Below, one piece after another: positions 39,650 to 56,923 of a stretch of DNA of 64,000 nt (its first letter is position 1; every line of letters starts with the position of its first letter). The notes under the pieces are model-generated. The model was given only the letters and a program-made list of their open reading frames with translations, was not told where the DNA came from and made no database searches. The DNA comes from Bacteroidota bacterium (GTDB taxonomy: Bacteria; Bacteroidota; Bacteroidia; UKL13-3). The position numbers and the translations under genes were made by a program. The stretch is taken from NCBI GenBank assembly GCA_027488905.1, contig JAIYAT010000020.1, positions 246,490 to 310,489 of the forward strand. The letters run 5' to 3'.

Positions 39650-40687
39650 TTAATTTTTTTGGTAAGTCACGCGTTCATAGGAGAAGAACTTTGATACAAA
39701 TGCCACTCTTCTTCTCGGGTCATCTTCTTTGGCATAAGTCTCCATGCTTATGCCGGTGGTTTTATTAAGAATATCTAAGGCTAAATACCCTGCACCCCCT
39801 TTACTTATGGTATCAGCAGCAGCCAATGCTTGTGGAGGTATATTTCTCTTTACTTGCTGAACCAACCACTCACTTGGCTTTAAAAACTTTGGTGAAAGTA
39901 TAGGTTCAGCTACGATGGCATTCGCTAAGGTTGAAAGCGAAACCAATTCCAGTTCGGGCAAGGCTAACTTTACCGAACTTGCCTTTAAGCTTAATGGATT
40001 TATGCTATGCTGATTTAGTACTTCTGTTGAAACAATTAACTTCTCTATAGTTTGCGTGTTCGATTGCTGGCGCACCTTAGCGTCCTCGATGGTTTTCACT
40101 TGAGGATAGGTTTTCGGTTCACTAATCCTTGTAGGGCCTGTTTCTGAGTTAGTTGCTGCTAAAATAGGTTTTACCTCTTGCTGCTTTTTTAGCAGTACCC
40201 ATGAACCATATCCAAACAATAACAAGGTTGCTGCCAAGGTTATCCATTGCATAGGTAACAAGGCTATGCGCTTTCCATCTTTACGTTTGAGTTTGTCTTT
40301 CCCTTTAAATTCAATTTGCGAAGGCTGCAGTTTAGTAAGTTCAAACAAGGCATACGCCTTTTTAACAGCAGGTTGAATGGCAATTTCTCTTTCAACTTCT
40401 TTAACTTCTTGTGGCGTTAAATCACCTTCTATTAAGGCAATCAGTTGTGTTTCTTGGGCAGGCGTTAAGGTGTTAATTGCTTCCTTTTTCAGGTAAGAAA
40501 AATCCAGACTTGCATTACTTATTTCTAAAGCCAAATCGGCTTGAGATAATAAGTCAAATTCCGCCTTTATATGAGGATGCAAGGCAAGAAAATCCATTAA
40601 CAAAGCCGTTTCCGCTTCATTTAGCAAGCCTTCCAAATGGTTAATTAACCATTCCTCGTAGTTTGATAGGTTAGGTAAATTGCTCAT
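39650..40687 (-). CDS. Anti-sigma factor (single-pass membrane protein)
   Basis: 4-bp overlap with the upstream ECF sigma gene. One TM segment (WITLAATLLLFGYGSWVLL). Typical position and organisation. Confidence 0.55.
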   Translation of the reverse strand: MSNLPNLSNYEEWLINHLEGLLNEAETALLMDFLALHPHIKAEFDLLSQADLALEISNASLDFSYLKKEAINTLTPAQETQLIALIEGDLTPQEVKEVEREIAIQPAVKKAYALFELTKLQPSQIEFKGKDKLKRKDGKRIALLPMQWITLAATLLLFGYGSWVLLKKQQEVKPILAATNSETGPTRISEPKTYPQVKTIEDAKVRQQSNTQTIEKLIVSTEVLNQHSINPLSLKASSVKLALPELELVSLSTLANAIVAEPILSPKFLKPSEWLVQQVKRNIPPQALAAADTISKGGAGYLALDILNKTTGISMETYAKEDDPRRRVAFVSKFFSYERVTYQKN

Positions 40688-41169
40688 AAAACGTTTTCTA
40701 AACTCCCTAAATAATTCTTCATGGCCAACCTTGCGCGGTAGATATACACCTTTACCTGACTTTCATTTAAGCCGGTGATGTCCCCTATTTCTTCGTAGCT
40801 ATACCCTTCATAATCTCTCAACAACACAACATGTCTTTGTATATCACTTAAAGTCTCTAAGGCTTTATTTAATACCTTTTTCAAATCGGTGTATTTGTTT
40901 TCGGTTTGAACCAACTCCACATGATGGTCTTCCATCACAGCAGAATGTTTTTCCTTGCGAATTTTGTCAATCATGGTATGGTATCCTGCGGTAAACAAAT
41001 AGCTTTTCGACTTTTGAAAGTCTACCTGCTCTACCTTTAACCAAAGCTTTTCGAACGTATCTTGCACCACATCTCTAGCTGCATCATTATCCTTGAGGTT
41101 TTTCGCCACAAAGCGAAACAAACCATCAGCATATTGATCCACACAAGTATTATAATCGGCAACTGTCAT
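40684..41169 (-). CDS. RNA polymerase ECF-type sigma-70 factor
   Basis: Region 2 ...VVQDTFEKLWLK... and region 4 ...YEGYSYEEIGDITGLNESQVKVYIYRARLAMKNYL. 161 aa. Confidence 0.8.
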   Translation of the reverse strand: MTVADYNTCVDQYADGLFRFVAKNLKDNDAARDVVQDTFEKLWLKVEQVDFQKSKSYLFTAGYHTMIDKIRKEKHSAVMEDHHVELVQTENKYTDLKKVLNKALETLSDIQRHVVLLRDYEGYSYEEIGDITGLNESQVKVYIYRARLAMKNYLGSLENVL

Positions 41170-41252
41170 CTCTCGGGTTAAAGGGATTTGTGCATGTGAC
41201 GCACGAACTGAGGAGAATGTTACAAAAAATATTTAAGATTTTTAGGAAAAGC

Positions 41253-41339
41253 GCTTTTGGCTTCTGGCAGCTGGCTTCTGGCGGGTCTTTCAAAGCGCTT
41301 CTGGCTTCTGGCAGCTGGCCTCTGGCGGTTCTTTCACGT
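41253..41339. repeat. Two tandem copies of a ~43-bp repeat (GCGCTT(T/C)TGGCTTCTGGCAGCTGGC(T/C)TCTGGCGG(G/T)TCTTTCA)
   Basis: Direct reading of the sequence. Lies immediately 5' of the 22-bp array. Confidence 0.8.
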
Positions 41340-41351
41340 TATACCAAGCTC

Positions 41352-41670
41352 CTACCCAAATGGTGGGAAGCTACTACCCAAATGGTGGGGACCTACTACC
41401 CAAATGGTGGGAAGCTACTCCACAAGAGGTGGGAAGCTACTCCATAAATGGTGGGGACCTACTACCCAAATGGTGGGAAGCTACTACCCAAATGGTGGGG
41501 ACCTACTACCCAAATGGTGGGAAGCTACTACCCAAGTGGTGGGAAGCTACTACCCAAGTGGTGGGAAGCTACTACCCAAGTGGTGGGAAGCTACTACCCA
41601 AATGGTGGGAAGCTACTCCATAAGAGGTGGGGAGCTACTACCCAAATGGTGCGAAGCTACTCCACAAGAA
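41352..41670. repeat. Tandem array of about 14 copies of a 22-bp unit (consensus CTACTACCCAAATGGTGGGAAG). No spacers, non-coding
   Basis: Head-to-tail copies with variants (GGGAAG/GGGGAC; CCCAAATGG/CCCAAGTGG/CCACAAGAGG/CCATAAATGG). The period is not a multiple of 3, so all three plus frames read the same low-complexity peptides (ORFs 41190..41854 are artefacts). Confidence 0.9.
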
Positions 41671-41973
41671 GTTTAGAGCAAGAGGGAGGAGAAAGAGTGC
41701 TTCTGGCCACTGGCAGCTAGCATCTAGCAGCCATAGAGCAAAGCCCCCGGTCGCCGAACAGAGTCCCGGTCGCCGAGCGGAGCCGAGGCGCCGAGCACAT
41801 AGAAAGAGAAGGAGAAAGAGAAAGAGTGTTATAGAAAGAGCAAGAGTACATTAATACCCAGCACGACGCCAACTGCCAAAAGCCAAACGCTAATAGCTAA
41901 TAGCTAACCGCCAGCAAATTTGGTATTCTAAAATAAACCCCATAACTTGTACTACCCTTAAATTTCTTTAGCA

Positions 41974-42486
41974 ATGAACGATAAAATTACCCTAGACCGC
42001 ATTAAATTAATGCATCCCTTGCTTCGCGCAGAAGTAACAGAAATGTACCATGAAATTTGTTTGGCCTTAACTGGCAAAGCCATTTGCAGGTTTGCGTATA
42101 CCCTAAGAACCTTTAAAGAGCAAGACGAATTATTTGCCATTGGCCGAACCAAGCCCGGCAAAAAAGTTACCAATGCCAAAGGAGGCCAAAGCTACCATAA
42201 CTATGGCTTGGCGTTTGACATTGTATTGTTAGTAGACACCAAAGGAAATGGCAAGTTCGACAAGGCGAGTTGGGAAACCAATGTAGACTTTGACCGCGAT
42301 GGCCGAGCAGATTGGCATGAAGTAGTTAGCATCTGCAAACGCTATGGCTGGGAATGGGGTGGCGACTGGAAATTCACCGACCTCCCACACTTCCAAAAAA
42401 CCATGGGAAAATCTGTCGTGCAATTAAAACAGTTGTTAGATGCCGGTAAGTTAGCTGTCAAAAACACTACTTATCCTTTGTTATAA
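41974..42486 (+). CDS. Peptidase M15 (D-Ala-D-Ala carboxypeptidase / phage-endolysin-like L-Ala-D-Glu peptidase) family protein
   Basis: ...GQSYHNYGLAFDIVL... (S-x-H-x-x-G-x-A-x-D zinc site) and ...GWEWGGDWKFTDLPHFQ (D-x-x-H) are M15 metallopeptidase signatures. A terminator-like hairpin lies at 42516-42545. Confidence 0.65.
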   Translation: MNDKITLDRIKLMHPLLRAEVTEMYHEICLALTGKAICRFAYTLRTFKEQDELFAIGRTKPGKKVTNAKGGQSYHNYGLAFDIVLLVDTKGNGKFDKASWETNVDFDRDGRADWHEVVSICKRYGWEWGGDWKFTDLPHFQKTMGKSVVQLKQLLDAGKLAVKNTTYPLL

Positions 42487-44671: not shown

Positions 44672-45112
44672 ATGACATCAGAAGAACTTAGAAAAATTTT
44701 CAATCAAAAGAAACAGAAAATAGAAAGAACTGTTAGCAAGAAAGGAATCGTAAAAGAAAAACTTGTTGAAGGCTTCGAAAAAACAACTTTTGAAGAATTT
44801 CAAACTTGGTTTAAAATTTCTAAATATCAAGATGGTTGTAATTACTGCGGTACAAGTTCTATAAGCACACATAAGCTATTCAATGATGCTATTTCAGGTG
44901 CAAGACATAATTGGACTAGGGGAGGAAAAAGAGGAAAAAGACTTGAATTAGACAGAGTTGATCCCTCCAAAAAATATGATGAACTTCAAAATCTTGTATG
45001 GTGTTGCTATTGGTGTAATAATGCCAAATCAAACTTTTTCACTAAAGTTGAATTTGAACCAATTGCAAAGGAGATTGGAAAAGCAATAAAGAAAATGATA
45101 GAACAGCATTGA
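44672..45112 (+). CDS. HNH endonuclease-like protein
   Basis: CNYCG...H...N...WCCYWCNNAKSN: two Cys pairs flanking His/Asn in an HNH-like zinc-finger arrangement. Sits at the left edge of the defence island. Confidence 0.5.
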   Translation: MTSEELRKIFNQKKQKIERTVSKKGIVKEKLVEGFEKTTFEEFQTWFKISKYQDGCNYCGTSSISTHKLFNDAISGARHNWTRGGKRGKRLELDRVDPSKKYDELQNLVWCCYWCNNAKSNFFTKVEFEPIAKEIGKAIKKMIEQH

Positions 45113-45271
45113 GACAGAAAATCAGCCAATAACAATAATAATAAATTGTCTATTCAACAACTTGTATACCCAATTGAGATAAAAAACCTGCCTAAGTTAA
45201 CCCCAATAACCACCAGTAGCCAACATATCTACAATAATTCGTATTTTGCTGCAAAGAATTTGAACGAATAA

Positions 45272-47683
45272 ATGATAGATAAAAAGTCCCTTTCTGAAAG
45301 AGATATATGCACCAAGTTTATTACCCCTGCGGTTGAGAAAGCGGGATGGAATAGACTGACGCAGTTATTGGAGGAAGTTTCGTTCACGGATGGAAAAATT
45401 TATGTGAGAGGTAAACTGACTGCAAGAGGAAATAAAAAACGAGCCGATTATATTCTGTATTACAAACCCAATATTCCTATTGCCATCATTGAGGCCAAAG
45501 ACAACAAGCATTCTGTTAGAGCGGGTATTCAACAGGCTTTGGATTATGCTCAAATACTTGATATCCCTTGTGTTTTTAGTAGCAATGGGGATGGCTTTTT
45601 GTTTCACGACCGTACCGCTACAGATGGTAATATTGAAACTGAAATTGGCTTAGATGATTTTCCAAGTCCCGAACAACTTTGGGAGAAATACAAAATTTAC
45701 AAAGGCATCGCAACGCCATCCGCTGAAAAGATTGCTTCACAAGATTATTATTTTGATGGTTCAAACCGAAAACCAAGATACTACCAACAAATTGCAGTAA
45801 ACAGAACTGTGGAAGCCATTGCCAACGGACAAAATCGTATTATTTTGGTAATGGCAACAGGTACTGGAAAAACTTATACTGCTTTTCAAATCATTCACAG
45901 ACTTTGGAAAAGTGGTGCAAAAAAACGCATTCTGTTTTTGGCCGACCGTAACGCATTAATTGACCAGACTCGCAGAGGCGACTTTAAACATTTTAAGGAT
46001 AAAATGACGGTGGTAAAGCACCGACAAATTGATAAGAGCTATGAAATCTATTTGGCATTATACCAAGGCTTATCTGGTACTGATGAGGATGCAAATGTGT
46101 ACAAACAATTTTCACCAGACTTCTTTGACTTGATTGTTATTGACGAGTGCCACCGAGGAAGTGCAAAGGAAGACAGCAGTTGGAGAGAAATTTTATCCTA
46201 TTTCAAAAACGCAACACATATTGGTTTAACTGCTACGCCAAAAGAAACCAAAGAAACAAGCAATACAGAATATTTTGGCGACCCAGTTTATACTTATTCC
46301 TTAAAACAAGGAATTGACGATGGTTTCCTTGCTCCCTATCGCGTAGTTAGAATTGGATTGAATATAGATGCTGAGGGTTGGCGTCCCGACCAAGGTAAAA
46401 CAGATAAAGATGGAAACGAAGTTGAAGATAGGGTTTATAACCGCAAGGACTTTGACCGAAATTTAGTAATAGAAGAACGCACAGAATTGGTTGCAAAAAA
46501 ACTCACTGAGTTCTTAAAAGGCTATGATCGTTTTGCAAAAACCATTGTGTTTTGTGTAGACATTGACCATGCTGAACGCATGCGAACGGCTTTGGCCAAA
46601 CATAATGCTGATTTGGTGGCAGAGAATTACAAGTATGTCATGCAAATTACAGGCGACAATGATGAAGGCAAACGAGAATTAGATAACTTCATCAACCCCG
46701 AAGAAAAATATCCTGTGATTGCCACTACCTCTGAATTAATGACAACAGGTGTGGATGCACAAACCTGTAAAGTAATTGTATTGGATGCCAATATCAATTC
46801 AATGACCAAGTTCAAACAAATCATTGGCAGAGGCACTCGCATCAATGAAGAATATGGTAAGCTTTATTTCACCATTCTTGATTTTAGAAACGCAACCGAT
46901 TTGTTTGCCGACAAAGATTTTGATGGTGACCCAATTCGTGTAAAGCCTGTTTCGCAAGACGAAGATTTATCATTGGTAGTAATTGAAGAAGAAGAAAATT
47001 CAGTAACCGTTTTAGACGAAGCCACAGGTGAGGAAGTGGTATTTGAAAAAGTTAAAATCCGCTATCCAGATGGCTCACCACTTGATGGAAATTGGGTAGC
47101 AAGAGATAAAAAGGGTTATAGAGAAAAAGTGTATGTAAACGGTGTGGATGTATCTGTTTTGGTGAGCCGTGAAATGTATTTCGACCAACACGGTAAACCC
47201 ATCACAAGCAGTTTAAAAGACCATACCAAAGATATTATCAAAGAAAAGTTTGCTTCGCTCGACGACTTTTTAAATAAGTGGAATTCCACCGACCGCAAAG
47301 AAGCCATCATTGCAGAATTGCAAGAACAAGGAGTAATGGTAGAACCCTTGTATGATGCCGTAAATAAAGAAGTGGATTTGTTTGATTTGATTTGTCATGT
47401 GGCTTTTGACCAACCCCCATTAACAAGGAGAGAAAGAGCCAACAACGTAAAGAAGCGAAACTACTTTACCAAATATGGCGAACAGGCCAAAAAAGTATTG
47501 GAAGCCTTATTAGATAAATATGCTGATGAAGGCATTACCAATATTGAAAATATAGAAGTGTTAAGAATTAATCCATTTGATTCTTTTGGATCACCTTTGG
47601 AAATCATCAACGAGTTCGGAAGTAAACAAAATTACTTTGCTGCCATCAAAGAACTGGAGACAGAACTATACAAACAGGCCTAA
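45272..47683 (+). CDS. hsdR: Type I restriction enzyme R subunit (short form, 803 aa)
   Basis: N-terminal PD-(D/E)xK nuclease region (ADYILYY...IAIIEAKD). SF2 helicase motifs (MATGTGKT Walker A; VIDECHR DEAH box; GLTATP motif III; later TTSELMTTGVD/QIIGRGTR motifs V/VI). Confidence 0.85.
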   Translation: MIDKKSLSERDICTKFITPAVEKAGWNRLTQLLEEVSFTDGKIYVRGKLTARGNKKRADYILYYKPNIPIAIIEAKDNKHSVRAGIQQALDYAQILDIPCVFSSNGDGFLFHDRTATDGNIETEIGLDDFPSPEQLWEKYKIYKGIATPSAEKIASQDYYFDGSNRKPRYYQQIAVNRTVEAIANGQNRIILVMATGTGKTYTAFQIIHRLWKSGAKKRILFLADRNALIDQTRRGDFKHFKDKMTVVKHRQIDKSYEIYLALYQGLSGTDEDANVYKQFSPDFFDLIVIDECHRGSAKEDSSWREILSYFKNATHIGLTATPKETKETSNTEYFGDPVYTYSLKQGIDDGFLAPYRVVRIGLNIDAEGWRPDQGKTDKDGNEVEDRVYNRKDFDRNLVIEERTELVAKKLTEFLKGYDRFAKTIVFCVDIDHAERMRTALAKHNADLVAENYKYVMQITGDNDEGKRELDNFINPEEKYPVIATTSELMTTGVDAQTCKVIVLDANINSMTKFKQIIGRGTRINEEYGKLYFTILDFRNATDLFADKDFDGDPIRVKPVSQDEDLSLVVIEEEENSVTVLDEATGEEVVFEKVKIRYPDGSPLDGNWVARDKKGYREKVYVNGVDVSVLVSREMYFDQHGKPITSSLKDHTKDIIKEKFASLDDFLNKWNSTDRKEAIIAELQEQGVMVEPLYDAVNKEVDLFDLICHVAFDQPPLTRRERANNVKKRNYFTKYGEQAKKVLEALLDKYADEGITNIENIEVLRINPFDSFGSPLEIINEFGSKQNYFAAIKELETELYKQA

Positions 47684-47749
47684 ATAAGGTTAATAATCCC
47701 TCAAAATGAAATTTGCAATTATCAAATCTGATTATATATTTGCCATCAA

Positions 47750-47800
47750 CATGCTCACCCCGCTTCCCGTAGAACAGCGCGCTCAGGGTGAGCTTTTTAT
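47750..47800 (+). terminator. Rho-independent terminator between hsdR and the Abi gene
   Basis: gctcaccccgcttcccgtagaacagcgcgctcagggtgagctttttattttt: a stem gctcaccc/gggtgagc followed by a T-run. Confidence 0.65.
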
Positions 47801-47812
47801 TTTTATAGAGGT

Positions 47813-48709
47813 ATGAGTAAAATTAACTACAATAAGCCTCCTCTTTCCTATACAGATCAAATTATCCAGCTAAAACAGCGTGGACTAATTATTAGCAACG
47901 AGCCTAAAGCACTTCACTTACTTGAGAATATCAGTTACTATAGGCTAAGTGGATATTGGTTTCCCCTTCTAGCTGATAAATTTGCTCATCAGTTCAAACC
48001 TAATTCCACTATTGAAACAGCTTTTAATTTATACTGTTTTGACAGAGAATTGCGTCAACTAATGCTTGCCGAAACTGAAAAAATTGAAGTGGCCATCCGA
48101 GCCAAATTGAGTTACGTTTTTTCGCATGCAAACGGCCCTTTTTGGTTTCAGAACCCAACTAATTTCACTAATCCTGGGAAGCATGCTACCTCATTTGCTA
48201 AAATTGAAGAGGAGTTTCAACGAAGTGATGAAGAGTTTATACATGCCTTTAAGGCAAAATACAATAATCCAATACCTCCCAGTTGGATGACATTGGAAAT
48301 AACATCATTTGGCACCTTATCCATTTTGTACAAGAACCTGAGACCTACCCATCAAAAGCGAGAAATTGCGCACTATTTTGGGTTGCCAGATAAAGTTTTT
48401 GAAACCTGGATTCACAGCATCGTTTACCTTCGTAATGTGTGTGCACACCACACCCGTTTGTGGAATAGAGCCATGAGTATTCAACCACAAATCCCAAGAT
48501 CACCGAGAAAACAATGGTTAAATAATGTAAATGTAGCTAATAACAGAACTTATTTTATTTTAAGTATGGTCGCCTATTTATTGCAAACCATAAATCCAAA
48601 CAATCGGTTTACTGATAAATTTAAAGCGCTTTTACACAAATATCCAAACGTAGATACCAGAGCACTAGGCTTCCCAATTGACTGGGAAAATGAACCACTT
48701 TGGAAGTAA
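47813..48709 (+). CDS. Abi_2 (AbiD/AbiF-like) abortive-infection family protein
   Basis: ...LENISYYRLSGYWFP... and ...YLRNVCAHHTRLWN match the conserved Abi_2-family motifs. Inserted between hsdR and hsdM. Confidence 0.7.
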   Translation: MSKINYNKPPLSYTDQIIQLKQRGLIISNEPKALHLLENISYYRLSGYWFPLLADKFAHQFKPNSTIETAFNLYCFDRELRQLMLAETEKIEVAIRAKLSYVFSHANGPFWFQNPTNFTNPGKHATSFAKIEEEFQRSDEEFIHAFKAKYNNPIPPSWMTLEITSFGTLSILYKNLRPTHQKREIAHYFGLPDKVFETWIHSIVYLRNVCAHHTRLWNRAMSIQPQIPRSPRKQWLNNVNVANNRTYFILSMVAYLLQTINPNNRFTDKFKALLHKYPNVDTRALGFPIDWENEPLWK

Positions 48710-48721
48710 CAAACAAATCAT

Positions 48722-50158
48722 ATGAGCAACATATCAGGCATCATAAAAAGCATTCAAAACATCATGTGGCAAGACACTGGCTTAAATGGCGATGCACAAC
48801 GCATTGAGCAATTGGGCTGGATGCTTTTTTTGAAAATATTTTCGGACAAAGACAAAGAATTAGAGTTACTAGACGACAAATACACCTCCCCCATCCCTGA
48901 TAAATTTCATTGGGTAAAAGAAAAAGGAAATTGGGCAGGTGATGATGAAGGAATGACAGGCGATGAATTGTTGGAGTTTGTAGACAGACAATTGTTTCCT
49001 GCCCTGCGCAATTTGGATTTGAGCACAGGGAACCAACGTGCAGTGATCGTACGAGAGGTTTTTGAAGGCAATAACAACTATATGAAAAGCGGCATCAACA
49101 TTCGCAAGGTGTTGAACAAGCTCAACGAAATTGATTTTAACATTGCCAAAGACCGCCATGCTTTTGGCGAATTGTATGAAACCATTTTAAAGGAATTGCA
49201 AAGTGCTGGAAAAAGTGGTGAGTTTTATACGCCACGTGCCATTACGCAGTTCATTACCGAAACCATAAATCCACAATTGGGTGAAAAAGTATTGGACCCT
49301 GCTTGCGGAACGGGCGGCTATTTGACTTGTGCCATTGAGCATTTAAAGAAACAAGCCAAAAATGTGCAAGAACGCAAAAGCATTGAAGACAATATTGCAG
49401 GTTGGGAATACAAACCTTTACCCTATCTGCTGGCAACAACCAATCTCATTTTACACGACATAGAAATACCCAACATCAAATTTGGCGATGCCTTAGACCA
49501 ACCCTTGAGTAACTTTACCGAAAAGCATCGGGTAAATGTAATATTGGCAAATCCACCATTTGGTGGCATTGTAGCCAATAACAACGAAACTAATTTCCCA
49601 CAAACGTATCGTACCAAGGAAAGTGCCGACTTGTTTTTGATCCTAATGATTCATTTACTAAAACAAGATGGACGAGCAGGAATTGTATTGCCCGATGGCA
49701 GTTTAACAGGCGATGGCGTAAAGCAACGCATTCGCCAAAAATTATTGGAAGATTGCAACCTGCATACCATTATCCGTTTGCCTAATTCTGTGTTTCAGCC
49801 TTATGCAATGGTGGCTACCAACTTATTATTTTTTGACAAAGGTTTGCCCACCAAAGACATTTGGTACTATGAGCACCGCATGCCTGAAGGTTACAAATCC
49901 TACAACAAAACAAGACCCATACAAGCCAAAGAGTTTGAACCCATAACCCAATGGTGGAACAAGCGCACCGAAAGCGATATTGCCTGGAAAGTAAATATTA
50001 AAACCATCATCCAAAGAGGCTATGATTTGGATATAAAAAACCCAACCAAACCCGAAGAGGAAAAGGAATACAACAGTGCCGAATTGATGGAAATGCTACA
50101 CACTTCATTTGAGAAAAGTAATTTCTTGTTGAACCAATTAAAACAAGCGGTGAAATGA
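48722..50158 (+). CDS. hsdM: Type I restriction-modification N6-adenine DNA methyltransferase subunit
   Basis: N-terminal HsdM domain (IMWQDTGLNGDAQRIEQLGWMLFLKIF). SAM-binding LDPACGTGG. Catalytic ILANPPFG. Confidence 0.9.
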   Translation: MSNISGIIKSIQNIMWQDTGLNGDAQRIEQLGWMLFLKIFSDKDKELELLDDKYTSPIPDKFHWVKEKGNWAGDDEGMTGDELLEFVDRQLFPALRNLDLSTGNQRAVIVREVFEGNNNYMKSGINIRKVLNKLNEIDFNIAKDRHAFGELYETILKELQSAGKSGEFYTPRAITQFITETINPQLGEKVLDPACGTGGYLTCAIEHLKKQAKNVQERKSIEDNIAGWEYKPLPYLLATTNLILHDIEIPNIKFGDALDQPLSNFTEKHRVNVILANPPFGGIVANNNETNFPQTYRTKESADLFLILMIHLLKQDGRAGIVLPDGSLTGDGVKQRIRQKLLEDCNLHTIIRLPNSVFQPYAMVATNLLFFDKGLPTKDIWYYEHRMPEGYKSYNKTRPIQAKEFEPITQWWNKRTESDIAWKVNIKTIIQRGYDLDIKNPTKPEEEKEYNSAELMEMLHTSFEKSNFLLNQLKQAVK

Positions 50159-51462
50159 GATTAGAATTTATTGAATTGCCTTTTCTCAGTTTAGGAACAT
50201 CAGGCAAGATTAGAACAGGTTCTGGCTTTAATTCTAGTGATTTTACAACTGAGGGAGTTCCCCTTATAAAAATTGGCAATATCAAAAACAACTTAATAGA
50301 TATCAATGATTGCTCATTTATTTCAGAAAACAAGAAGAAAATAAACTTAACCAAAGAAGATGATTTGTTAATTGCAATGCGAGGAGCCACAAGTGGTAAA
50401 CTTGGTATTGTTTCTAGCCAATTTGCTGACTGCTTTTATGTTGGAAGTATTGGTAATCTTGGAAAAATAAATGAAAAATTGATTTATCGTCCATTTATAA
50501 AATATATTGAACAACAATTATATGATATATTAAAGACCGAAGCAAAAGGAACTGCTACTCCAATGGTTTCAATTGGAATGTTAGAAAAATTCAAATTAAT
50601 TATTCCCAAAACGAAGGAACAACAAGAATATTTATTTGAACTTCTTGAAAGCAGAAAAAGACAAGTTGGCAAACTCTCCACCGAACTCACCCACCAACTC
50701 ACCCTCGTAAAAAAGCTCCGACAGCAATTATTGCAAGATGCAGTGCAAGGCCGTTTCGACTTCGCTCAGGGACCAGAGGAAGACGAACCAGCAAGTGAAT
50801 TGCTAAAAAAGATAAAAGCCGCCCTTCGACAAGCTCAGGGTACGAAAAAAATTAAAGAACTACCACCCATCAAACCCGAAGAAATTCCATTTGAAATACC
50901 TGAAAATTGGGTATGGTGTAGGTTGGGGGAGATAATCACACTAATATCTGGTCAAGACCTAACTCCTTCTGAGTACTCTGACAAAGACAATTTCGGTCTA
51001 CCTTATGTCACAGGTGCAAGTAATTTAGATAAGGGTAATGTAATTTTAAATAGATGGACGAATAATCCAAAATCAATTGCAATTGAAAGTGATTTATTAT
51101 TGACATGTAAAGGTTCAGGTGTTGGGAAAATGGCGATATTAAAAGAGAAGAAGGTGCATATTGCCCGACAAATAATGGCTCTACGAAGTAGCTTCATACC
51201 AAATGAATTTTTAAAAACCTTTTTGGAACTACAGGTTGAAAACTTCAGAGGGAAAGCTAAAAGCTTAATTCCTGGTATTGATAGAGATATTGTATTGACT
51301 TTAACATTTCCGCTTCCTCCATTAGCCGAACAACACCGCATCGTTCAAAAATTAGATGAATTGATGCAGTATTGCAATGAGATGGAAGCAAGCATCAAAC
51401 AAAGCCAAGCGCAAAATGAGAAGTTATTGCAACAGGTTTTGAGGGAGGCGTTGAGGAAATAA
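50155..51462 (+). CDS. hsdS: Type I restriction-modification specificity subunit
   Basis: 4-bp overlap with hsdM. Two target-recognition domains separated by conserved helical spacers (…LVKKLRQQLLQDAVQG… and C-terminal …LAEQHRIVQKLDELM…QVLREALRK). Confidence 0.85.
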   Translation: MRLEFIELPFLSLGTSGKIRTGSGFNSSDFTTEGVPLIKIGNIKNNLIDINDCSFISENKKKINLTKEDDLLIAMRGATSGKLGIVSSQFADCFYVGSIGNLGKINEKLIYRPFIKYIEQQLYDILKTEAKGTATPMVSIGMLEKFKLIIPKTKEQQEYLFELLESRKRQVGKLSTELTHQLTLVKKLRQQLLQDAVQGRFDFAQGPEEDEPASELLKKIKAALRQAQGTKKIKELPPIKPEEIPFEIPENWVWCRLGEIITLISGQDLTPSEYSDKDNFGLPYVTGASNLDKGNVILNRWTNNPKSIAIESDLLLTCKGSGVGKMAILKEKKVHIARQIMALRSSFIPNEFLKTFLELQVENFRGKAKSLIPGIDRDIVLTLTFPLPPLAEQHRIVQKLDELMQYCNEMEASIKQSQAQNEKLLQQVLREALRK

Positions 51463-51486
51463 CCAGTTGAGGTTTAAAAAAAATAT

Positions 51487-52092
51487 ATGCCAATATCAGT
51501 TCAAAAATTAGAAGACACCTTTCAATTAAAATATTTAAAAAGTATTAAATGGGGGAGCACATTTGTTGAAAATAAAAATGGTGTCTATATTATATCTTCG
51601 AGTAAAGACAAAGATTTCTTACCTAAGCATGATGTTGAGATTGTTATCAATGATAAACAGATTGATTTATGGTTAGCTAATGCACCAAACATACTTCTAA
51701 ATGAAAAGACACCTTCCAAAACAGATTTAATAAATCAGCTAAAGAATTTTTGGTTACCTGATGAAACAATACTTTATATAGGAAAAGCTGAAAAGCAAAC
51801 ATTATCAGAAAGAATAGGTCAGTTCTTCAATCATAAATTTGGCAAAAAAAGCCCTCATAAAGGTGGTTATTGGTTAAAACTTTTAAAAAATATAAATGAC
51901 CTTAACATTCATCTATATGAAACTAAGGAATCCCACATTATTGAAGAAGAAATCTTAAAAAAGTTTATAGAACAAGTCTCGGAACCAACAAAATTAAAAT
52001 TAATTGATAAGAACTTATATTTACCATTTGCAAATTTGCAATTACGCTCTGGAGTAATTAAATCACATGGACTTAAATATCATTACCAATGA
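51487..52092 (+). CDS. Hypothetical protein (possible divergent GIY-YIG-like nuclease)
   Basis: 201 aa, 25 bp after hsdS. Carries GVYIIS ... ILYIGKAEKQTLSERIGQFFNH, reminiscent of GIY ... YIG-x-NLxxRlxxH, but the GIY-YIG spacing is much longer than canonical, so this is weak. Confidence 0.3.
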   Translation: MPISVQKLEDTFQLKYLKSIKWGSTFVENKNGVYIISSSKDKDFLPKHDVEIVINDKQIDLWLANAPNILLNEKTPSKTDLINQLKNFWLPDETILYIGKAEKQTLSERIGQFFNHKFGKKSPHKGGYWLKLLKNINDLNIHLYETKESHIIEEEILKKFIEQVSEPTKLKLIDKNLYLPFANLQLRSGVIKSHGLKYHYQ

Positions 52093-52181
52093 AATGTATA
52101 AAATGTAAAATAAAGTGAAACAGAAATTAATAGGAATTGCCTGAGTTTACAAAAGTGGAGTTGACAAAATAAAAATAGCCT

Positions 52182-53279
52182 ATGAATAATAAACAAGCAA
52201 ACATATGTTTTTTATTGGGAGCCGGAGCTAGCTACCAGGCCTTGCCAGTTGTAAATGAGATTCCTAGAGAACTAGAAAAGATGATGGAATTTATTGTGAT
52301 TTTTGAGTTAAACAAATCTGCTCTAACCTATGATCCAATAAGAGACCAGTTAAATAATTTTTATTCAAAGTTAGAAGAAATAAAAAAGCACAGTTCTATA
52401 GATACATTAGCAAGGAAGTATTGGCTAAAAAGAGAAACATGTGAACATGGTACAAGCGAATATGTTTATTGGAATAAAGAATATGAATACATCAAAAGGA
52501 TTATAAGTTGTTTATTAACCTACCGTCGCTTAACTATAACTACATTATCTGATAATTTTTCAAATGAAATTACAACATTTGATAACAAGCAAAGGATGGC
52601 CTTTAAGCTTGATCCAAGATATGATAGTTTATTGGCATCTATACTAACCCCTAAGTTGCGCTTGCCAGAAAACATTAGCATTATATCTTGGAATTATGAT
52701 TTACAATTAGAACAGGCCTTTTCCTTTTATGAAGGCCAATCCGATTTAATTGAAGTTGGAAAGAAATTAAACATAGGTTACGAAACCCATGAGGAAAGTT
52801 CAATTATTAAATTAAATGGAACTGCTTGGTTTAATCCAGCAGGTTCAATACAGGCGTTTTATGAATACAACACAGAATCACATAACGTATTTTGGAATGC
52901 ATTAAAAGATTCTCACGATCCTAACATAAAAACAGGGATTAAGTTTTCTTGGGAACAGGACGAAATAATTTCACATTATAGAGAACTTGCAGCAAAAAAA
53001 ATAACTGAGGCAGACTTTGTTATTGTAATTGGGTATTCTTTTCCAATTTTTAATAGAGAAACAGATATTCAAATATTTTCAAAATTACCATCAAGTGCTA
53101 AATTAATCATACAAGGTCCTGAAGAACAAGGAAACAGAATTGTGAGTCAAATGGACAGTATTAAGAAAGGTTTGAGTAAAAAAACGAGTGTCGTTTCCAA
53201 CCTTGACCAATTTTACTTACCTAACGAATATTGGCAACCAAATAACTTGAGTTCAGCTAAAATCTATTCAGTTTTTTAA
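52182..53279 (+). CDS. SIR2-like (SIR2_2 / PF13289-type) domain protein, candidate NADase defence effector
   Basis: N-terminal ICFLLGAGASYQA (xLGAGAS NAD-binding). IISWNYDLQLEQAF (NYD motif). C-terminal DFVIVIGYSFPIFN (IGYS motif). At the position of the usual KLHGS catalytic His the sequence reads KLNGT. Confidence 0.6.
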   Translation: MNNKQANICFLLGAGASYQALPVVNEIPRELEKMMEFIVIFELNKSALTYDPIRDQLNNFYSKLEEIKKHSSIDTLARKYWLKRETCEHGTSEYVYWNKEYEYIKRIISCLLTYRRLTITTLSDNFSNEITTFDNKQRMAFKLDPRYDSLLASILTPKLRLPENISIISWNYDLQLEQAFSFYEGQSDLIEVGKKLNIGYETHEESSIIKLNGTAWFNPAGSIQAFYEYNTESHNVFWNALKDSHDPNIKTGIKFSWEQDEIISHYRELAAKKITEADFVIVIGYSFPIFNRETDIQIFSKLPSSAKLIIQGPEEQGNRIVSQMDSIKKGLSKKTSVVSNLDQFYLPNEYWQPNNLSSAKIYSVF

Positions 53280-53395
53280 GATTCAATTTAAGTTAAATTA
53301 ATAGAATTTATATATTCTAAGGAAATACAAGAAACAATTTCATTGATAGTAGTTAATTTAGCGAAAAATATTAGAAATGGAAATAGATTTATAAA

Positions 53396-53740
53396 GATAT
53401 TGGGGGCAGAGGGTCGAAATGTTACGTTTTGCAAAATTTTACCACGTCTAGGAAATACGCTAGCTGGGAAAGTCAATACTATTTTCCAAATTTTCCTGTA
53501 AAGGAAACAATGAGGAAAGTGTTATCAACAGATTAATAACTGTTGAAGCCTTGAAGTTGTGTTTGCGGATGTATTTTCTGAGCATATATAATGTGTTTAT
53601 GGATTTAAGTACAAAGATAACAATTTCTATACCTGAATTGAGTAGCGTTGCCTCCCTTATAAAAGGGTTAAAGCTTCGACAGAGCATGTACATTTCAAAC
53701 CTGCTACATACTATTTTACTAGTATCTGCCCCCTTTTTTT
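53396..53740 (+). ncRNA. Candidate structured ncRNA (retron msr/msd-like or DRT-associated) between the SIR2 and RT genes
   Basis: A ~470-bp non-coding gap. The GC-rich 9-nt inverted repeat GGGGGCAGA (53402-53410) / TCTGCCCCC (53725-53733) brackets ~315 nt and ends 18 nt before the RT start codon, like retron a1/a2 repeats. Internal hairpins include ttttcctgtaaaggaaa and cccttataaaaggg. The small ORFs 53288..53742 look spurious. Confidence 0.3.
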
Positions 53741-53751
53741 AACTTGATAAA

Positions 53752-55275
53752 ATGGAATTAGAAAAGTGGTTTAAAACAAAAAAGTATCCTCATATAGGTT
53801 TACCAATAACAATCAAAGATTATTATTGGGTAAAAGAATATGTTGAAAATTTTGATAAAGTTCGATGCCATAGTTTTCTTCCATTAATACATAAAATTAT
53901 TTTACAAAGAAGATTCAGAGCAGACAATTCTTTACCAGATAGAAACCCAAGTGGAAAGAGGAAAAGATTTATTGACAAGCCAAAAGTTCGAGATATTTTC
54001 TTCGCTTCACATTTAGATTCTTTAGTATTTTCAAAGTACAACGAAATATTGGCAACTGCATATGAAAGTTATATTGAAAATAAGAATTTCAATGAATCTG
54101 TAGTTGCATACCGAAAAATTTCAATTTCAAAGGGTTCTGAAAATAATAAATGCAACATTGATTTTGCAAAAACTACTTTTGAATTTATTCAAAAGAACAA
54201 TACAAAAAATCTTACTGCTATTGTTTCAGACGTTACTGATTTTTTCCCAAGTCTGAATCATAAAATCTTAAAAAAACAATGGACAAGTGTTTTAAACGAA
54301 ACTACTTTACCCAAAGACCATTATAATATATTTAAGGCTATAACTAATATCAAATACATTGAAGGCGACCAGTTATTTGAAAGTTATGGCAAAACTATGA
54401 TTGTTGAAAATGGTGTTCCAAACTCTTCAACTAAAACTACTTTTAAAAGGAAGGAAATAAAAAGTAGTAAACATTTTAAAGAAAAAAATTCCGTTGCTTA
54501 TTGTGAAAAGGATGAATTCCTAAAGAACAATTTAAATTTAATTAAATCAAAAAACAACATAGTTGGAATACCTCAAGGAAGTCCAATCAGTGCAACATTG
54601 GCAAATATCTATATGTTGGAGTTTGATCAAGAAATATTTGATATTGTTTCTTCAATTGGTGGATTTTACCAAAGATATAGTGATGATTTAATTATTATTT
54701 GTGAGCAACAATTTGAAGATGATATTATTAAACTAATCAGAGATAAAATTGATAACCTTGTTGATTTGAAAATAGAACCAAAAAAGACTAAGATCTTTCG
54801 TTTTGAGGAAGTAAAAGGTAAATTTATTGGATTTGAAATTGATGAAAAAACTAAAGCACCAAATCATAATAAAACACTGGCTTATTTAGGATTCTCATTT
54901 GACGGACAAAGGGTTTTGATAAAAACTTCTGGTTTTTCAAAGTTCTATAGAGCAATGAAAAGCTCGTTTAAAAAATCAACTTCTTTAGCAATACATAGTA
55001 AAAATCCCGACAGAAGTTTATTCAAGTCAAGGCTATACAAGCGATTTACCCATAGAGGAGCAAAACGAAAACTTATTTATAGACCATCAAAGGCAGACAA
55101 AAAAGTTTATGAAAAAACGAAAGAGTATTATTGGGGAAATTATCTTAGCTATATAAACAAAGCAAATGAATCAATGAAATCAATAAACGGTGACAATATT
55201 ATCAAAAGGCAAAGCAGAAAGTTTTGGAAGAAATTTAATGACTTAATGAAATTTCATGAATCAAGACTTAAATAA
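53752..55275 (+). CDS. Reverse transcriptase (defence-associated / retron-like RT)
   Basis: RT motif 1-2 RKRFIDKPKVRDIFFASHLDSLV. Motif 3 AIVSDVTDFFPSLNH. Motif 4 GIPQGSPISATLANIYMLEFD. Motif 5 YQRYSDDLIIIC (YxDD). Motifs 6/7 LKIEPKKTKIFRF. About 90 aa insertion between motifs 3 and 4. C-terminal ~140 aa extension. Confidence 0.85.
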   Translation: MELEKWFKTKKYPHIGLPITIKDYYWVKEYVENFDKVRCHSFLPLIHKIILQRRFRADNSLPDRNPSGKRKRFIDKPKVRDIFFASHLDSLVFSKYNEILATAYESYIENKNFNESVVAYRKISISKGSENNKCNIDFAKTTFEFIQKNNTKNLTAIVSDVTDFFPSLNHKILKKQWTSVLNETTLPKDHYNIFKAITNIKYIEGDQLFESYGKTMIVENGVPNSSTKTTFKRKEIKSSKHFKEKNSVAYCEKDEFLKNNLNLIKSKNNIVGIPQGSPISATLANIYMLEFDQEIFDIVSSIGGFYQRYSDDLIIICEQQFEDDIIKLIRDKIDNLVDLKIEPKKTKIFRFEEVKGKFIGFEIDEKTKAPNHNKTLAYLGFSFDGQRVLIKTSGFSKFYRAMKSSFKKSTSLAIHSKNPDRSLFKSRLYKRFTHRGAKRKLIYRPSKADKKVYEKTKEYYWGNYLSYINKANESMKSINGDNIIKRQSRKFWKKFNDLMKFHESRLK

Positions 55276-55468
55276 AGTGCCAATGCCAAAGCCATACATT
55301 TGCAAACCACAAAAGCCAGCCTTAATGCCAAAGCAACAAGGTAACGTACTCCTTCCCAACCGCAATACAGGATAAATTGAAGGCGAGTCTTTAATAAAAC
55401 CTGAAAGTATTGTAGTTGAATTAAAAAAAATAATATTTAAATTCATTACTTGCAATTTTTTATTTCTT

Positions 55469-56116
55469 TTGATTTTAAATCCTCATTATAATAAAGCAAT
55501 GACAAACAGGTCAGAAACCCTATGGGATAAGTCAAATATCTCCTTACTAAATTACCAAAAATTCATCAACAAAAAAGCAGATAAGTACCAACTTACAATT
55601 ATAGATTTGTTTTACATTTCTAACTTTAAAGGTGGGAATTCTACCATCAATGAAAGTGAAGAATTGATAAATAAGAAATTATTAAAATATAGTGAGCAAA
55701 TGAGGGAAATAGATAGTGATTTTGGTTCAACGCACCTTAAAGAACTTTCTAATGAATCACTGAATTCATTATGCAGGCAGGCAAAAGATATTCTGAAGAA
55801 TGGAGATGAAAATGATTTTGCCATAGATGGCTTTAAATCTTCCTTTATCGCTACTTTATTGCATGTGTATTTCCCAAATTTACTGCCAATACTAGATAGA
55901 AGGCTTTTGATAAACCTTGGTTTGGTAGAAGGAAGTGACCTAAACAATGCAAGACAAGTAAAAAATATTGGTGAATTTTACGAAAGGCTGATTAGGAAAT
56001 TTTACGATATCCAAGTTCAATCAGATAAATCAATTAGAGAAATTGATAGAGAATTTTTTATTATACAATTGCCAGATTGGGCAACAAAACCTAACAACTC
56101 AAAAAATGATGAATGA
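55469..56116 (+). CDS. Hypothetical protein downstream of the RT
   Basis: 215 aa, very AT-rich ORF with no recognisable motifs. Possible accessory component of the RT locus. Confidence 0.35.
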   Translation: MILNPHYNKAMTNRSETLWDKSNISLLNYQKFINKKADKYQLTIIDLFYISNFKGGNSTINESEELINKKLLKYSEQMREIDSDFGSTHLKELSNESLNSLCRQAKDILKNGDENDFAIDGFKSSFIATLLHVYFPNLLPILDRRLLINLGLVEGSDLNNARQVKNIGEFYERLIRKFYDIQVQSDKSIREIDREFFIIQLPDWATKPNNSKNDE

Positions 56117-56712: not shown

Positions 56713-56923
56713 TTAAAAACGCATCTTACACGGTTTATTACCTATTGTTTCAGCCCACAACCACCCCAAAACCTTTGGTAGAAACTGTTTGGTTCAAACA
56801 AATTGGCGCTTTAGCTTTTCACATTTCTATGATTTAATTTTCAGGTTTTTAGGACAGTGAGAGGAGCGGTTTTAGCAATCTAGCTTAATTTGCATTAGGG
56901 GCAATTGTAAGAAGTCCATGGTC

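What the first reader, a model, noticed from the sequence alone, without database searches (positions are those of the whole stretch)
41352..41670. About 14-copy tandem array of a 22-bp non-coding repeat between the divergent ECF sigma and M15 peptidase genes
A head-to-tail array (consensus CTACTACCCAAATGGTGGGAAG) with unit variants, no spacers (so not CRISPR) and a period incompatible with coding. Iteron-like or regulator-binding arrays, phase-variable minisatellites and replication or partition sites all look like this. Its position in the promoter region of an ECF sigma operon hints at regulatory or contingency function. Each unit contains the quasi-palindrome CCCA-AAT-GGTGGG.
Basis: seen in the sequence. 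Interest (0 to 1): 0.55.

Follow-up and report, generated by a model that had tools for sequence, protein, structure and literature searches.

The report
Dispersed 22-bp minisatellite repeat element
The 14-copy 22-bp tandem repeat is real, but it is one copy of a small non-coding repeat element scattered through the genomes of a group of uncultured Bacteroidota; it varies in length and presence between close relatives, so it looks like ordinary repeat DNA, not a dedicated switch for the neighbouring sigma factor.

Summary
The array is confirmed: period 22, 14.4 copies, at 41346-41661, inside a 640-bp GC-rich spacer between an ECF sigma operon and a CwlK-type M15 peptidase gene.

It is not a one-off. 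The same unit, always ending in the same 43-nt terminal module (CTACTnCATAAAAAGTTTAGAGCAAGAGTGAGGAGAAAGAGTG), occurs at six or seven unrelated intergenic sites in related metagenomic genomes. These sites include one next to a RAYT gene, one after tRNA-Leu, one before rsmI and one before a Xer-like recombinase gene.

- **Copy number varies.** It differs between relatives at the same locus: 14 against 11, and 13 against 7.
- **The array can be absent.** A 96%-identical strain has another cassette in its place, with the sigma and peptidase upstream regions intact.
- **No sign of coding or structure.** It is not coding, since stops appear in other copies. It has no Rfam match, and its 4-bp hairpin shows no covariation.
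- **No mobile-element hallmarks.** There are no terminal inverted repeats or target duplications, and no plasmid or phage match.

The closest known analogue is the BrickBuilt minisatellite element of Porphyromonas gingivalis, which has 23-nt units, but this family lacks BrickBuilt's IS5-like ends.

Best reading: a lineage-specific minisatellite-bearing repeat element that expands by slippage, a passenger in a repeat-rich, recombination-prone spacer. Interest is modest.

The parts
41338..41348 (+). Short 'leader' GTTATACCAAG directly before the first unit
   Evidence: It is shared with L028 (same locus) and with the unrelated locus L031 (GTTAYACCAAGGGGGTACCC; 30-nt match at 96.7%; sequences). 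It is absent at L026, L027, L030 and L038.
41349..41656 (+). 14 head-to-tail 22-bp units, consensus CTACTACCCAAATGGTGGGAAG. The unit types run A B A C D A B A E E E A F A', so a 5-unit block (110 bp) is partly duplicated.
   Evidence: (92% identity at offset 110). Invariant positions in 68 internal units from six arrays are C1, T5, A10, A11, G15 and T16.
41657..41699 (+). Conserved terminal module: a degenerate last unit CTACTCCACAAGAAGTTTAGAG plus the purine-rich 21-nt tail CAAGAGGGAGGAGAAAGAGTG
   Evidence: It is present after the array at every locus whose 3' end is held (window, L028, L026, L027, L030/L016, L031), and similarity stops after ...GAGAAAGAGTG (alignment A1). L043 has a variant form.
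41248..41335 (+). Two 44-bp direct repeats built of heptamers (GCTTCTG GCTTCTG GCAGCTG GC...). This is the left arm of the GC-rich spacer.
   Evidence: family D2; a third, 66%-identical copy lies at 41694-41737, so the leader-array-tail segment is bracketed by direct copies.
41694..41737 (+). Third, diverged copy of the 44-bp heptamer motif, immediately after the tail
   Evidence: D2. It aligns to L019 9692-9731 at 92.5%, which marks the right-hand breakpoint of the array-for-cassette replacement.
41858..41910 (+). Right heptamer arm (GCCAACT GCCAAAA GCCAAAC GCTAATA GCTAATA GCTAACC GCCAGC), inverted relative to 41253-41285
   Evidence: I1: 33-nt arms, 79% complementary, 572 nt apart. Arms of the same kind bracket the inserts in L019 and L028.
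41229..41870 (.). GC-rich island (52% against 37% for the window) holding the array and the other simple repeats (19-bp CCCGGTCGCCGAGCGGAG x2 at 41746-41782; AGAAAG runs at 41801-41826)
   Evidence: It is the only island of this size in the 64-kb window.
41198..41223 (-). Putative ECF-type promoter of the sigma operon (GTAAC-N17-CGTC on the minus strand), 126 bp from the array
   Evidence: Read from the sequence. It lies in the 75 bp that are the same in the array-less strain L019 and in L028. That it is a promoter is inferred from the general ECF consensus, not tested.
40684..41169 (-). ECF sigma factor gene (context, not part of the element)
   Evidence: Pfam Sigma70_r2/r4_2 and NCBIfam sigma70-ECF.
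41974..42486 (+). M15 / CwlK-type peptidase gene (context, not part of the element)
   Evidence: Pfam Peptidase_M15_4. Homologues are named CwlK by JGI.

Best explanation
The array is the expandable core of a small, non-coding, lineage-restricted repeat element. The element consists of an optional 11-nt leader, N x 22-bp units and a fixed 43-nt terminal module, and it is scattered over intergenic sites in a clade of uncultured (apparently freshwater) Bacteroidota. Its length changes by replication slippage or unequal recombination between units, and whole copies are gained, lost or swapped by recombination among the other short repeats that crowd the same spacers. At this locus it is a passenger in a repeat-rich, hypervariable spacer at the edge of a variable defence island. 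It is not a component of the ECF sigma or peptidase control regions. Shown here: dispersal, the conserved terminal module, copy-number and presence/absence polymorphism, and the lack of coding, of a known RNA family and of structural covariation. Inferred: slippage as the expansion mechanism, past mobility, and the absence of a dedicated function.
For: (1) The same unit and tail occur at unrelated loci: L026 after tRNA-Gly/tRNA-Leu; L027 before rsmI; L016/L030 beside a Y1_Tnp/RAYT gene; L031; L038; and L043, 35 bp before a Xer-like recombinase gene. Further ORF fragments turned up in JGI metagenomes. (2) Similarity between loci covers only the array and the 43-nt tail, and the flanks are unrelated. 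(3) Orthologous loci differ. The window has 14 units and L028 has 11 with other variants. L016 has 13 and L030 has 7, with the 5' flank 322/322 identical. (4) L019 (96.4% identical over 9.3 kb) has a 360-bp cassette in place of window 41285-41689, and L020, L022 and L023 agree. (5) The block duplication inside the array is what unequal exchange produces. (6) The orthologous tail of L028 is only 36/43 identical (read from A1) and its last units are decayed. The adjacent sigma-proximal flank is 94% identical, so there is no sign of extra constraint. (7) The + frames carry stops in L028, L016 and L030. There is no Rfam hit. Fold z-scores are -2.3 and -1.6, and there is no covariation. (8) A published precedent of the same build exists in another Bacteroidetes: BrickBuilt, PMC4596501.
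Against: Six unit positions are invariant in all 68 internal units across loci and genomes, and the tail is recognisable everywhere. This could reflect selection for a binding site or an RNA, not just recent spread. No transposition hallmarks (terminal inverted repeats, target duplications, a clean empty site) were found, so how the copies dispersed is unexplained. Array lengths in short-read assemblies may be collapsed, so part of the copy-number evidence is soft. Transcription and protein binding could not be tested, and BrickBuilt segments did show promoter activity.
Confidence: 0.6

Rival explanations
1. Cis-regulatory or contingency element: the array carries or modulates promoters, or insulates the two divergent genes, and changes in unit number tune expression of neighbouring genes.
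For: It sits between two divergent genes, and copy number varies between relatives. BrickBuilt segments had bidirectional promoter activity in reporter assays. At L027, L038 and L043 the array lies upstream of a gene.
Against: L019 lacks the array yet keeps both gene-proximal regions. The putative ECF promoter lies 126 bp away, in the conserved part. No sigma-70-type promoter was found in the region, and I saw no Bacteroidetes TTG/TAnnTTTG pair in the unit by eye. At L026 and L030 the array lies downstream of genes or next to other repeats.
Confidence: 0.14
2. Multivalent binding platform: the DNA (iteron- or centromere-like, two helical turns per unit) or its transcript (a sponge of repeated small hairpins) titrates a protein.
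For: The unit has a conserved 14-nt block (GGTGGGAAG|CTACT) alternating with a variable 8-nt block, and six invariant positions. The 22-bp period equals that of the R6K and pPS10 iterons (my knowledge). In the hairpin register, 86% of cells pair.
Against: No rep, par or regulator gene is consistently adjacent, and neighbours differ at every locus. There is no plasmid or phage match. Pair 8-18 is broken in 18 of 34 unit types, G18C variants are uncompensated, and covariation is not above shuffles. Folding is hardly better than for shuffled sequence.
Confidence: 0.1
3. REP-like substrate of a Y1 (RAYT) transposase: each unit is a mini-hairpin followed by CTAC (GTAG on the other strand), copied and dispersed as single-stranded DNA.
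For: L016/L030 carry the array about 500 bp from a Y1_Tnp gene, within its REP cluster. A second RAYT paralogue in the same contig is followed by a head-to-tail 30-bp hairpin array. The lack of terminal inverted repeats and target duplications fits single-strand transposition (my knowledge of the IS200/IS605 and RAYT families).
Against: Only one of about seven loci is next to a RAYT, and none is present in the 64-kb window. The REPs that flank that RAYT are a different family (GCTCCnnnGGAGC and GCCCCnnnGGGGC), which also occurs in the window at 56422-56720 without any array. A 4-bp stem is far shorter than known REP hairpins.
Confidence: 0.08
4. Protein-coding: the 22-bp unit is read in all three frames to give a 22-residue repeat protein (SYYPNGGKLLPKWWEATTQMVG).
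For: All three + frames are open through the window array (139-aa ORF). Gene callers produced similar ORFs elsewhere.
Against: Starts and N-termini are unrelated between loci, and stops interrupt + frames in L028 (2-3 per frame), L016 and L030. A random 22-mer of this composition avoids stops in all three frames about 20-35% of the time (my estimate). The only Pfam hit is below threshold.
Confidence: 0.02

Closest known systems
BrickBuilt minisatellite-containing MITE of Porphyromonas gingivalis (Klein et al. 2015, PMC4596501)
   Same: Both come from the phylum Bacteroidota. Both have spacerless head-to-tail units of 22-23 nt with conserved and variable positions. In both, the array is followed by a distinct 'tail' (and sometimes preceded by a 'leader'), and there are many intergenic copies per lineage. 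Unit number differs between strains at the same locus, some loci lack the element in some strains, and assemblies break at the element. Neither has an Rfam match (searches compared).
   Different: The unit sequences are unrelated (AGAYCATARTATCCTCTCRTRTG against CTACTACCCAAATGGTGGGAAG). BrickBuilt has leaders and tails of up to 285 and 318 nt ending in IS5-like terminal inverted repeats (GAGACCTTTGCA). Here the leader is at most 11 nt, the tail is 43 nt, and no terminal inverted repeats or target duplications were found.
PgRS / MITE464 of P. gingivalis (41-nt internal tandem repeats)
   Same: It is a second example of a Bacteroidetes intergenic element with an internal minisatellite.
   Different: It has a different period, repetitive flanks and IS5-type terminal inverted repeats. 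There is no sequence similarity.
REP/BIME elements and their RAYT (Y1) transposases
   Same: These are short hairpin-containing intergenic repeats with a GTAG/CTAC motif. They lack terminal inverted repeats and target duplications and occur in clusters. One array copy lies beside a RAYT gene.
   Different: The stem here is only 4 bp and poorly conserved. The units are strictly head-to-tail and not in alternating orientation. Most copies have no RAYT nearby.
Plasmid iterons and partition centromeres (for example the seven 22-bp iterons of R6K gamma ori, or the sopC repeats of F); from my own knowledge
   Same: They are contiguous direct repeats with a period of about two helical turns.
   Different: There is no adjacent rep or par gene, the context is chromosomal, there are many dispersed copies, 7-14 units is far more than iteron sets have, and there is no plasmid match.
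CRISPR arrays
   Same: Both have direct repeats of similar size with a conserved flank on one side.
   Different: There are no spacers at all and no cas genes in the window. Rfam CRISPR models give only a chance-level hit, and that hit lies outside the array.
Cyanobacterial STRR heptanucleotide repeats (my knowledge); relevant to the flanking arms, not the array
   Same: The arms around the array are runs of 7-bp units (GCTTCTG / GCCAAAA / GCTAATA) in direct and inverted orientation.
   Different: The phylum and the sequences differ. No functional link has been shown.

Membership tests
BrickBuilt-type minisatellite MITE | Spacerless tandem units of about 23 nt, imperfect within and between copies | tested here: met
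   The period is 22, with 83-95% matches in seven arrays and 34 distinct unit types.
BrickBuilt-type minisatellite MITE | Distinct non-repetitive leader and tail flanking the repeats | tested here: inconclusive
   The 43-nt tail is conserved at all loci whose 3' end is held. The leader is only 11 nt and is present at 2 independent loci. Both are far shorter than in BrickBuilt.
BrickBuilt-type minisatellite MITE | Terminal inverted repeats matching an IS family (IS5-like GAGACCTTTGCA) | tested here: not met
   No match with at most 2 mismatches lies within 600 bp of any array, apart from one chance site. No shared inverted repeat joins the 5' and 3' flanks across loci.
BrickBuilt-type minisatellite MITE | Target-site duplications | tested here: not met
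   None is visible at the junctions of L026, L027, L030 or L031. In the window the segment lies between diverged 44-bp direct repeats, which are part of the local heptamer arms and not a target-site duplication.
BrickBuilt-type minisatellite MITE | Multiple intergenic copies in a restricted host range, with strain-variable unit number | tested here: met
   There are six or seven loci, all intergenic. Counts are 14/11 and 13/7 units at orthologous loci. Among 185,579 species-representative genomes only one array was found.
BrickBuilt-type minisatellite MITE | Sequence homology to BrickBuilt itself | tested here: not met
   The unit consensus printed in the paper shares nothing with this unit on either strand (by eye).
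CRISPR array | Repeats separated by unique spacers, with cas genes or a known repeat family | tested here: not met
   Start-to-start spacing is exactly 22 throughout. There is no Rfam CRISPR hit in the array.
Iteron origin / partition site | An adjacent gene for the cognate Rep or Par protein, and a plasmid or phage context | tested here: not met
   The neighbours are an ECF sigma, an anti-sigma, a DUF2807 protein and an M15 peptidase. Neighbours differ at each locus. There is no match in 72,556 plasmids or 50,697 phages.
Iteron origin / partition site | Specific binding of a protein to each unit | not testable with these tools
   This needs EMSA, a pull-down or ChIP.
REP / RAYT system | A stable imperfect palindrome with an adjacent GTAG, the same family flanking a RAYT gene | tested here: inconclusive
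   CTAC follows a 4-bp stem in each unit. One locus lies next to a RAYT, but that RAYT is flanked by another REP family. The stem is broken in about half of the unit types.
Structured non-coding RNA | A match to a curated family, or covariation-supported structure | tested here: not met
   No Rfam hit reaches gathering threshold in the window, and the best sub-threshold hit has E = 0.58. The covariation score is reached by 24-95 of 500 shuffles. Fold z-scores are -2.3 and -1.6.
Protein-coding repeat gene | An open frame with start and frame conserved across copies | tested here: not met
   Stops are present in + frames of L028, L016, L030, L027 and L031, and N-termini are unrelated.

The most novel reading that the evidence does not exclude
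The leader-array-tail unit is a new kind of minisatellite mobile element that has no terminal inverted repeats and is moved as single-stranded DNA by a Y1/RAYT-type enzyme (a 'tandem REP'). Alternatively, the invariant positions of the unit and tail mark a multivalent binding platform, as DNA or as RNA, for a host protein that is still unknown. In either case the family would be functional and not junk. The occurrence of a second, unrelated 22-bp array at the same place in another strain (L035 against L038) would then point to a dedicated mechanism that builds arrays of exactly this period.
Probability: 0.12. Interest if true: 0.55.

Novelty: new variant of a known kind. Interest (0 to 1): 0.3.

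Why it matters
The immediate value is corrective. The array should not be read as an ECF-sigma operator, an iteron or a partition site. It also explains why short-read assemblies of this lineage break here.

Beyond that, it adds a second, independent example, in uncultured environmental Bacteroidota, of the architecture first described for BrickBuilt in an oral pathogen (minisatellite plus fixed terminal module). This example lacks the IS-type ends, which raises the question of how such elements spread.

The arrays are ready-made VNTR markers for strain tracking in metagenomes. The spacer they occupy is a mosaic of heptamer hairpins, REP-like modules and swapped cassettes beside a defence island. 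That makes it a good place to study recombination-driven turnover of intergenic DNA.

Tried and rejected
1. **My own error.** The multi-unit pattern used for the metagenome and first viral scans had a 9-nt gap where 8 is correct. Those negatives are therefore invalid, and the metagenome scan could not be repeated. JGI metagenomes do hold copies (L043 and P0129, P0162, P0165). The corrected viral scan gave 14 single hits, all chance matches in two phage genes.

2. **A hit first dismissed.** I first took the genome-contig hit L016 for chance. It is a true 13-unit array.

3. **Coding.** Rejected.

4. **CRISPR and known RNA families.** Rejected.

5. **Conserved hairpin.** Both registers were tested and neither shows significant covariation.

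6. **Plasmid, phage or ICE origin.** There are no matches. The left flank is conserved core synteny.

7. **IS5-like or any shared terminal inverted repeats, and target duplications.** None found.

8. **Invertible promoter between the 33-nt inverted arms.** All 13 short-read contigs that enter the spacer have the window's orientation, and no invertase gene was seen. This is not supported, though the test is weak.

9. **Link to the DRT2 reverse transcriptase 12 kb away.** DRT2 makes tandem-repeat cDNA. However, the unit has no match near that gene, and arrays occur at loci without it.

10. **Spread of the rest of the GC-rich spacer.** A protein search with the ORF over the rest of the spacer found nothing. 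BLAST of the spacer against all held loci found only the orthologous loci, so the heptamer arms are not shown to be dispersed.

11. **Apparent 'ORF desert' at 1-14 kb.** This is a single minus-strand ORF of at least 4,600 aa running off the window, not decay.

Full report
**Observation**

The sequence at 41346-41661 is a spacerless head-to-tail array with period 22, 14.4 copies, 87% matches and no indels. The consensus is CTACTACCCAAATGGTGGGAAG. Eleven sites match that consensus with at most 3 mismatches, against none in 100 shuffles, and no copy lies elsewhere in the window.

The array lies in a 642-bp island of 52% G+C (window mean 37%). That island is the only one of its size in the 64 kb. 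It sits between an ECF sigma / anti-sigma / DUF2807 operon on the minus strand and an M15 (CwlK-type) peptidase gene on the plus strand. The island is itself a patchwork of simple repeats:
- two 44-bp direct repeats made of GCTTCTG-type heptamers (41248-41335), with a third diverged copy right after the array (41694-41737);
- a 33-nt inverted partner of these arms at 41858-41890;
- a 19-bp repeat, present twice;
- AGAAAG runs.

Short-read (Logan) contigs of the same strain from more than a dozen runs stop inside the array from both sides, at about 41381 and 41633. The edges are therefore independently confirmed, but the number 14 is not.

**The array is not a one-off**

All three plus-strand frames are open through the array, so gene callers sometimes call an ORF on it. 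I used that ORF as a probe. It recovered the same array in other contigs:

| Locus | Context |
|---|---|
| L028/L029 | Same sigma-peptidase spacer in a relative about 90-93% identical in the flanks |
| L026 | Downstream of tRNA-Gly and tRNA-Leu, next to a type I restriction system |
| L027 | Upstream of rsmI |
| L030 and L016 | About 500 bp from a Y1_Tnp (RAYT) gene, behind its REP cluster. L016 is a species-representative MAG whose record title reads Chitinophaga pinensis |
| L031 | A 1-kb contig with unrelated flanks |
| L038 | Contig begins in the array, upstream of a 212-aa gene and rsmI |
| L043 | JGI metagenome contig, array 35 bp upstream of a Xer-like tyrosine recombinase gene |

Several of these contigs come from the same sequencing runs as the window's strain, or from genomes whose MutS and RsmI are at least 90% identical to proteins assembled from those runs. 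The family therefore belongs to one clade of T9SS-bearing Bacteroidota.

**Anatomy of the element**

Between independent loci, similarity covers only the array and what follows it. That is a degenerate last unit and a purine-rich 21-mer, together CTACTnCATAAAAAGTTTAGAGCAAGAGTGAGGAGAAAGAGTG, after which the sequences diverge. L043 has a variant of this tail.

On the 5' side, 11 nt (GTTAYACCAAG) are shared by the window, L028 and the unrelated L031. The other loci start abruptly within a unit.

Among 68 internal units from six arrays, C1, T5, A10, A11, G15 and T16 never vary. A 14-nt block (GGTGGGAAG|CTACT) is well conserved, while positions 6-9 and 12-13 vary (ACCC, CCAC, CCAT, ATAC...; AT, GA, GT).

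I found no terminal inverted repeats shared across loci, no IS5-like ends and no target-site duplications.

**Variation between relatives**

- **Sigma-peptidase locus.** The window has 14 units and L028 has 11, with different variants and decayed last units.
- **RAYT locus.** L016 has 13 units and L030 has 7. The 5' flank is 322/322 identical and the 3' flank 98.7% identical. L030's junction is not a simple collapse of L016.
- **Absence in L019.** L019 (GCA_027487655.1) is 96.4% identical to the window over 9.3 kb to the left and about 91-94% to the right, but has no array. Window 41285-41689 is replaced by 360 bp holding a small hairpin element and a 48-codon ORF. The breakpoints lie in the heptamer repeats. 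Three independent assemblies (L020, L022, L023) span that allele.
- **What stays the same.** The sigma-proximal 75 bp contain a GTAAC-N17-CGTC motif that I read as the ECF-type promoter (inference). These 75 bp and the peptidase-proximal region are kept in all three alleles.
- **Order of events.** The more distant L028 shares the array and its leader junction with the window. The simplest history is an old insertion at this locus that was later replaced in L019.
- **Internal structure.** Inside the window array the unit order (A B A C D / A B A E E ...) shows a partly duplicated 5-unit block, which is the signature of unequal exchange.

**What it is not**

- **Not coding.** The ORFs at different loci have unrelated starts, and other copies carry stops in the plus frames.
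- **Not a CRISPR array.** There are no spacers.
- **Not a known RNA.** There is no Rfam match.
- **Not a conserved hairpin.** The CCCA/TGGG hairpin pairs in 86% of cells, but its second pair is broken in 18 of 34 unit types. G18C variants are uncompensated, and covariation is within the range of shuffles. A shifted register does no better.
- **Not strongly folded.** As RNA, either strand folds only marginally better than shuffled sequence (z = -2.3 and -1.6).
- **Not plasmid- or phage-borne.** There is no match in the plasmid or phage collections, and none in IMG/VR with the corrected pattern.
- **No visible promoter.** No sigma-70-type promoter is predicted in the spacer. That scan does not cover Bacteroidetes promoters.

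**Mechanism**

The best-supported reading is a lineage-specific, non-coding repeat element whose 22-bp core expands and contracts by slippage or unequal recombination. It has been seeded at several intergenic sites.

At this locus it is a passenger in a spacer that accumulates repeats and exchanges cassettes. L028 carries, besides the array, an Abi-like gene flanked by another repeat, and a partial duplicate of the 5' end of the peptidase gene. The spacer borders a variable defence island.

Two further points fit weak or absent constraint:
- The orthologous tail in L028 is only 36/43 identical, read from the alignment, whereas the neighbouring flank is 94% identical.
- The array is dispensable in L019.

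I put this reading at about 0.6. What it does not explain is how the copies spread without recognisable ends, and why six unit positions are invariant everywhere. The rivals are a promoter or contingency role, a multivalent binding platform, a RAYT substrate, and coding; they are weighed in the rival-explanations section of this report.

**Comparison with known systems**

The closest described thing is BrickBuilt of Porphyromonas gingivalis. It has 23-nt spacerless repeats with leader and tail, 19 intergenic copies, strain-variable unit numbers and assembly gaps at its sites, and no Rfam match (PMC4596501).

The present family works like BrickBuilt in all these respects. It fails the test for a MITE, however: no terminal inverted repeats, no target duplications, a very short leader and tail, and no sequence similarity. 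I therefore file it as a new variant of that kind, not as a member.

The 22-bp period recalls iterons, but none of the defining context is present. One copy lies next to a RAYT, but that RAYT is flanked by a different REP family, and the same REP family occurs in the window (56422-56720) without an array.

**Caveats**

- My first multi-unit search pattern had a wrong gap length. The metagenome scan is therefore uninformative and could not be rerun.
- Array lengths from short-read assemblies may be under-estimates.
- Transcription and protein binding were not testable with these tools.
- The organism is known only from MAG and metagenome records.

Noticed in passing
window 53280-55275: A 507-aa reverse transcriptase (53752-55275, +) is a DRT2 defence RT (PADLOC E = 1.8e-138). 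The 472-bp gap upstream folds significantly better than shuffles (z = -3.9), with a long-range GGGGGCAG...CUGCCCCC closing stem. This fits a DRT2 non-coding RNA template. It shares no sequence with the 22-bp unit.
   Followed up: partly
window 44672-56116: A defence island lies to the right of the peptidase: type I R-M (HsdR 45272-47683, HsdM 48722-50158, HsdS 50155-51462) with an embedded Abi_2 gene (47813-48709), a SIR2-like gene (52182-53279) and DRT2. The gene content between the peptidase and HsdR differs completely in L019 and L028.
   Followed up: partly
window 1-13800 (minus strand): The apparent ORF desert is one giant minus-strand ORF of at least 4,600 aa that runs off the left end of the window. 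The short plus-strand ORFs listed there are antisense artefacts.
   Followed up: yes
window 56422-56720: A cluster of REP-like modules (131 bp x 1.8; hairpins GCCCCnnnGGGGC and GCTCCnnnGGAGC, plus TGTTTGTAG motifs). It is the same family that flanks the Y1_Tnp/RAYT gene in L016/L030. No RAYT gene is present in the window.
   Followed up: partly
window 56913-56998: A hairpin built of heptamer repeats (TCGATAG / TCCATGG arms facing ACTATCG / TCTATGG arms). It is the same design as the GCTTCTG/GCCAAAA arms around the array. Similar heptamer hairpins occur in L031, L035 and L038. They recall cyanobacterial STRR repeats.
   Followed up: no
L035 1-82 (also L039) against L038 1-30: At the same place upstream of a 212-aa gene and rsmI, one strain starts with this 22-bp array and another with an unrelated array of the same period (AACTAGGTTTACCTCGAAACAG x 3.7). 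The latter is followed by GCGTCTCATTAAGTGTGT, a motif that also follows the tail in L028.
   Followed up: partly
L028 11510-11790 and 12294-12917: The upstream region and first 115 bp or so of the peptidase gene are present twice, separated by about 500 bp of foreign sequence. This looks like the scar of an insertion or recombination at the gene's 5' end. An Abi-like / PD-T4-5-like gene (10683-11363) flanked by 60-bp CACAGAT-type direct repeats lies in the same spacer.
   Followed up: partly
L019 9423-9569 (minus strand): A 48-codon ORF in an AT-rich cassette occupies the place of the array in the closest relative. It has no Pfam match.
   Followed up: partly
L016 7002-7088: A head-to-tail 30-bp hairpin array (AACATGGGGTATCGCCCCATGTT..., 2.9 copies) lies immediately upstream of a second RAYT paralogue (L016 6491-6940). 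Tandem REP arrays therefore exist in this lineage.
   Followed up: partly
proteins P0174 and P0136: Two called ORFs from other ENA contigs back-translate (by hand) to 22-bp arrays that resemble this unit. P0174 gives CCACAGATGGTGGAAGGCCACT (18/22 identical to the CCAC variant). P0136 gives CCAAATGGTGGGAGGGGGCATC (same 13-nt core). The family may therefore extend further. Their DNA and source organisms could not be fetched.
   Followed up: partly
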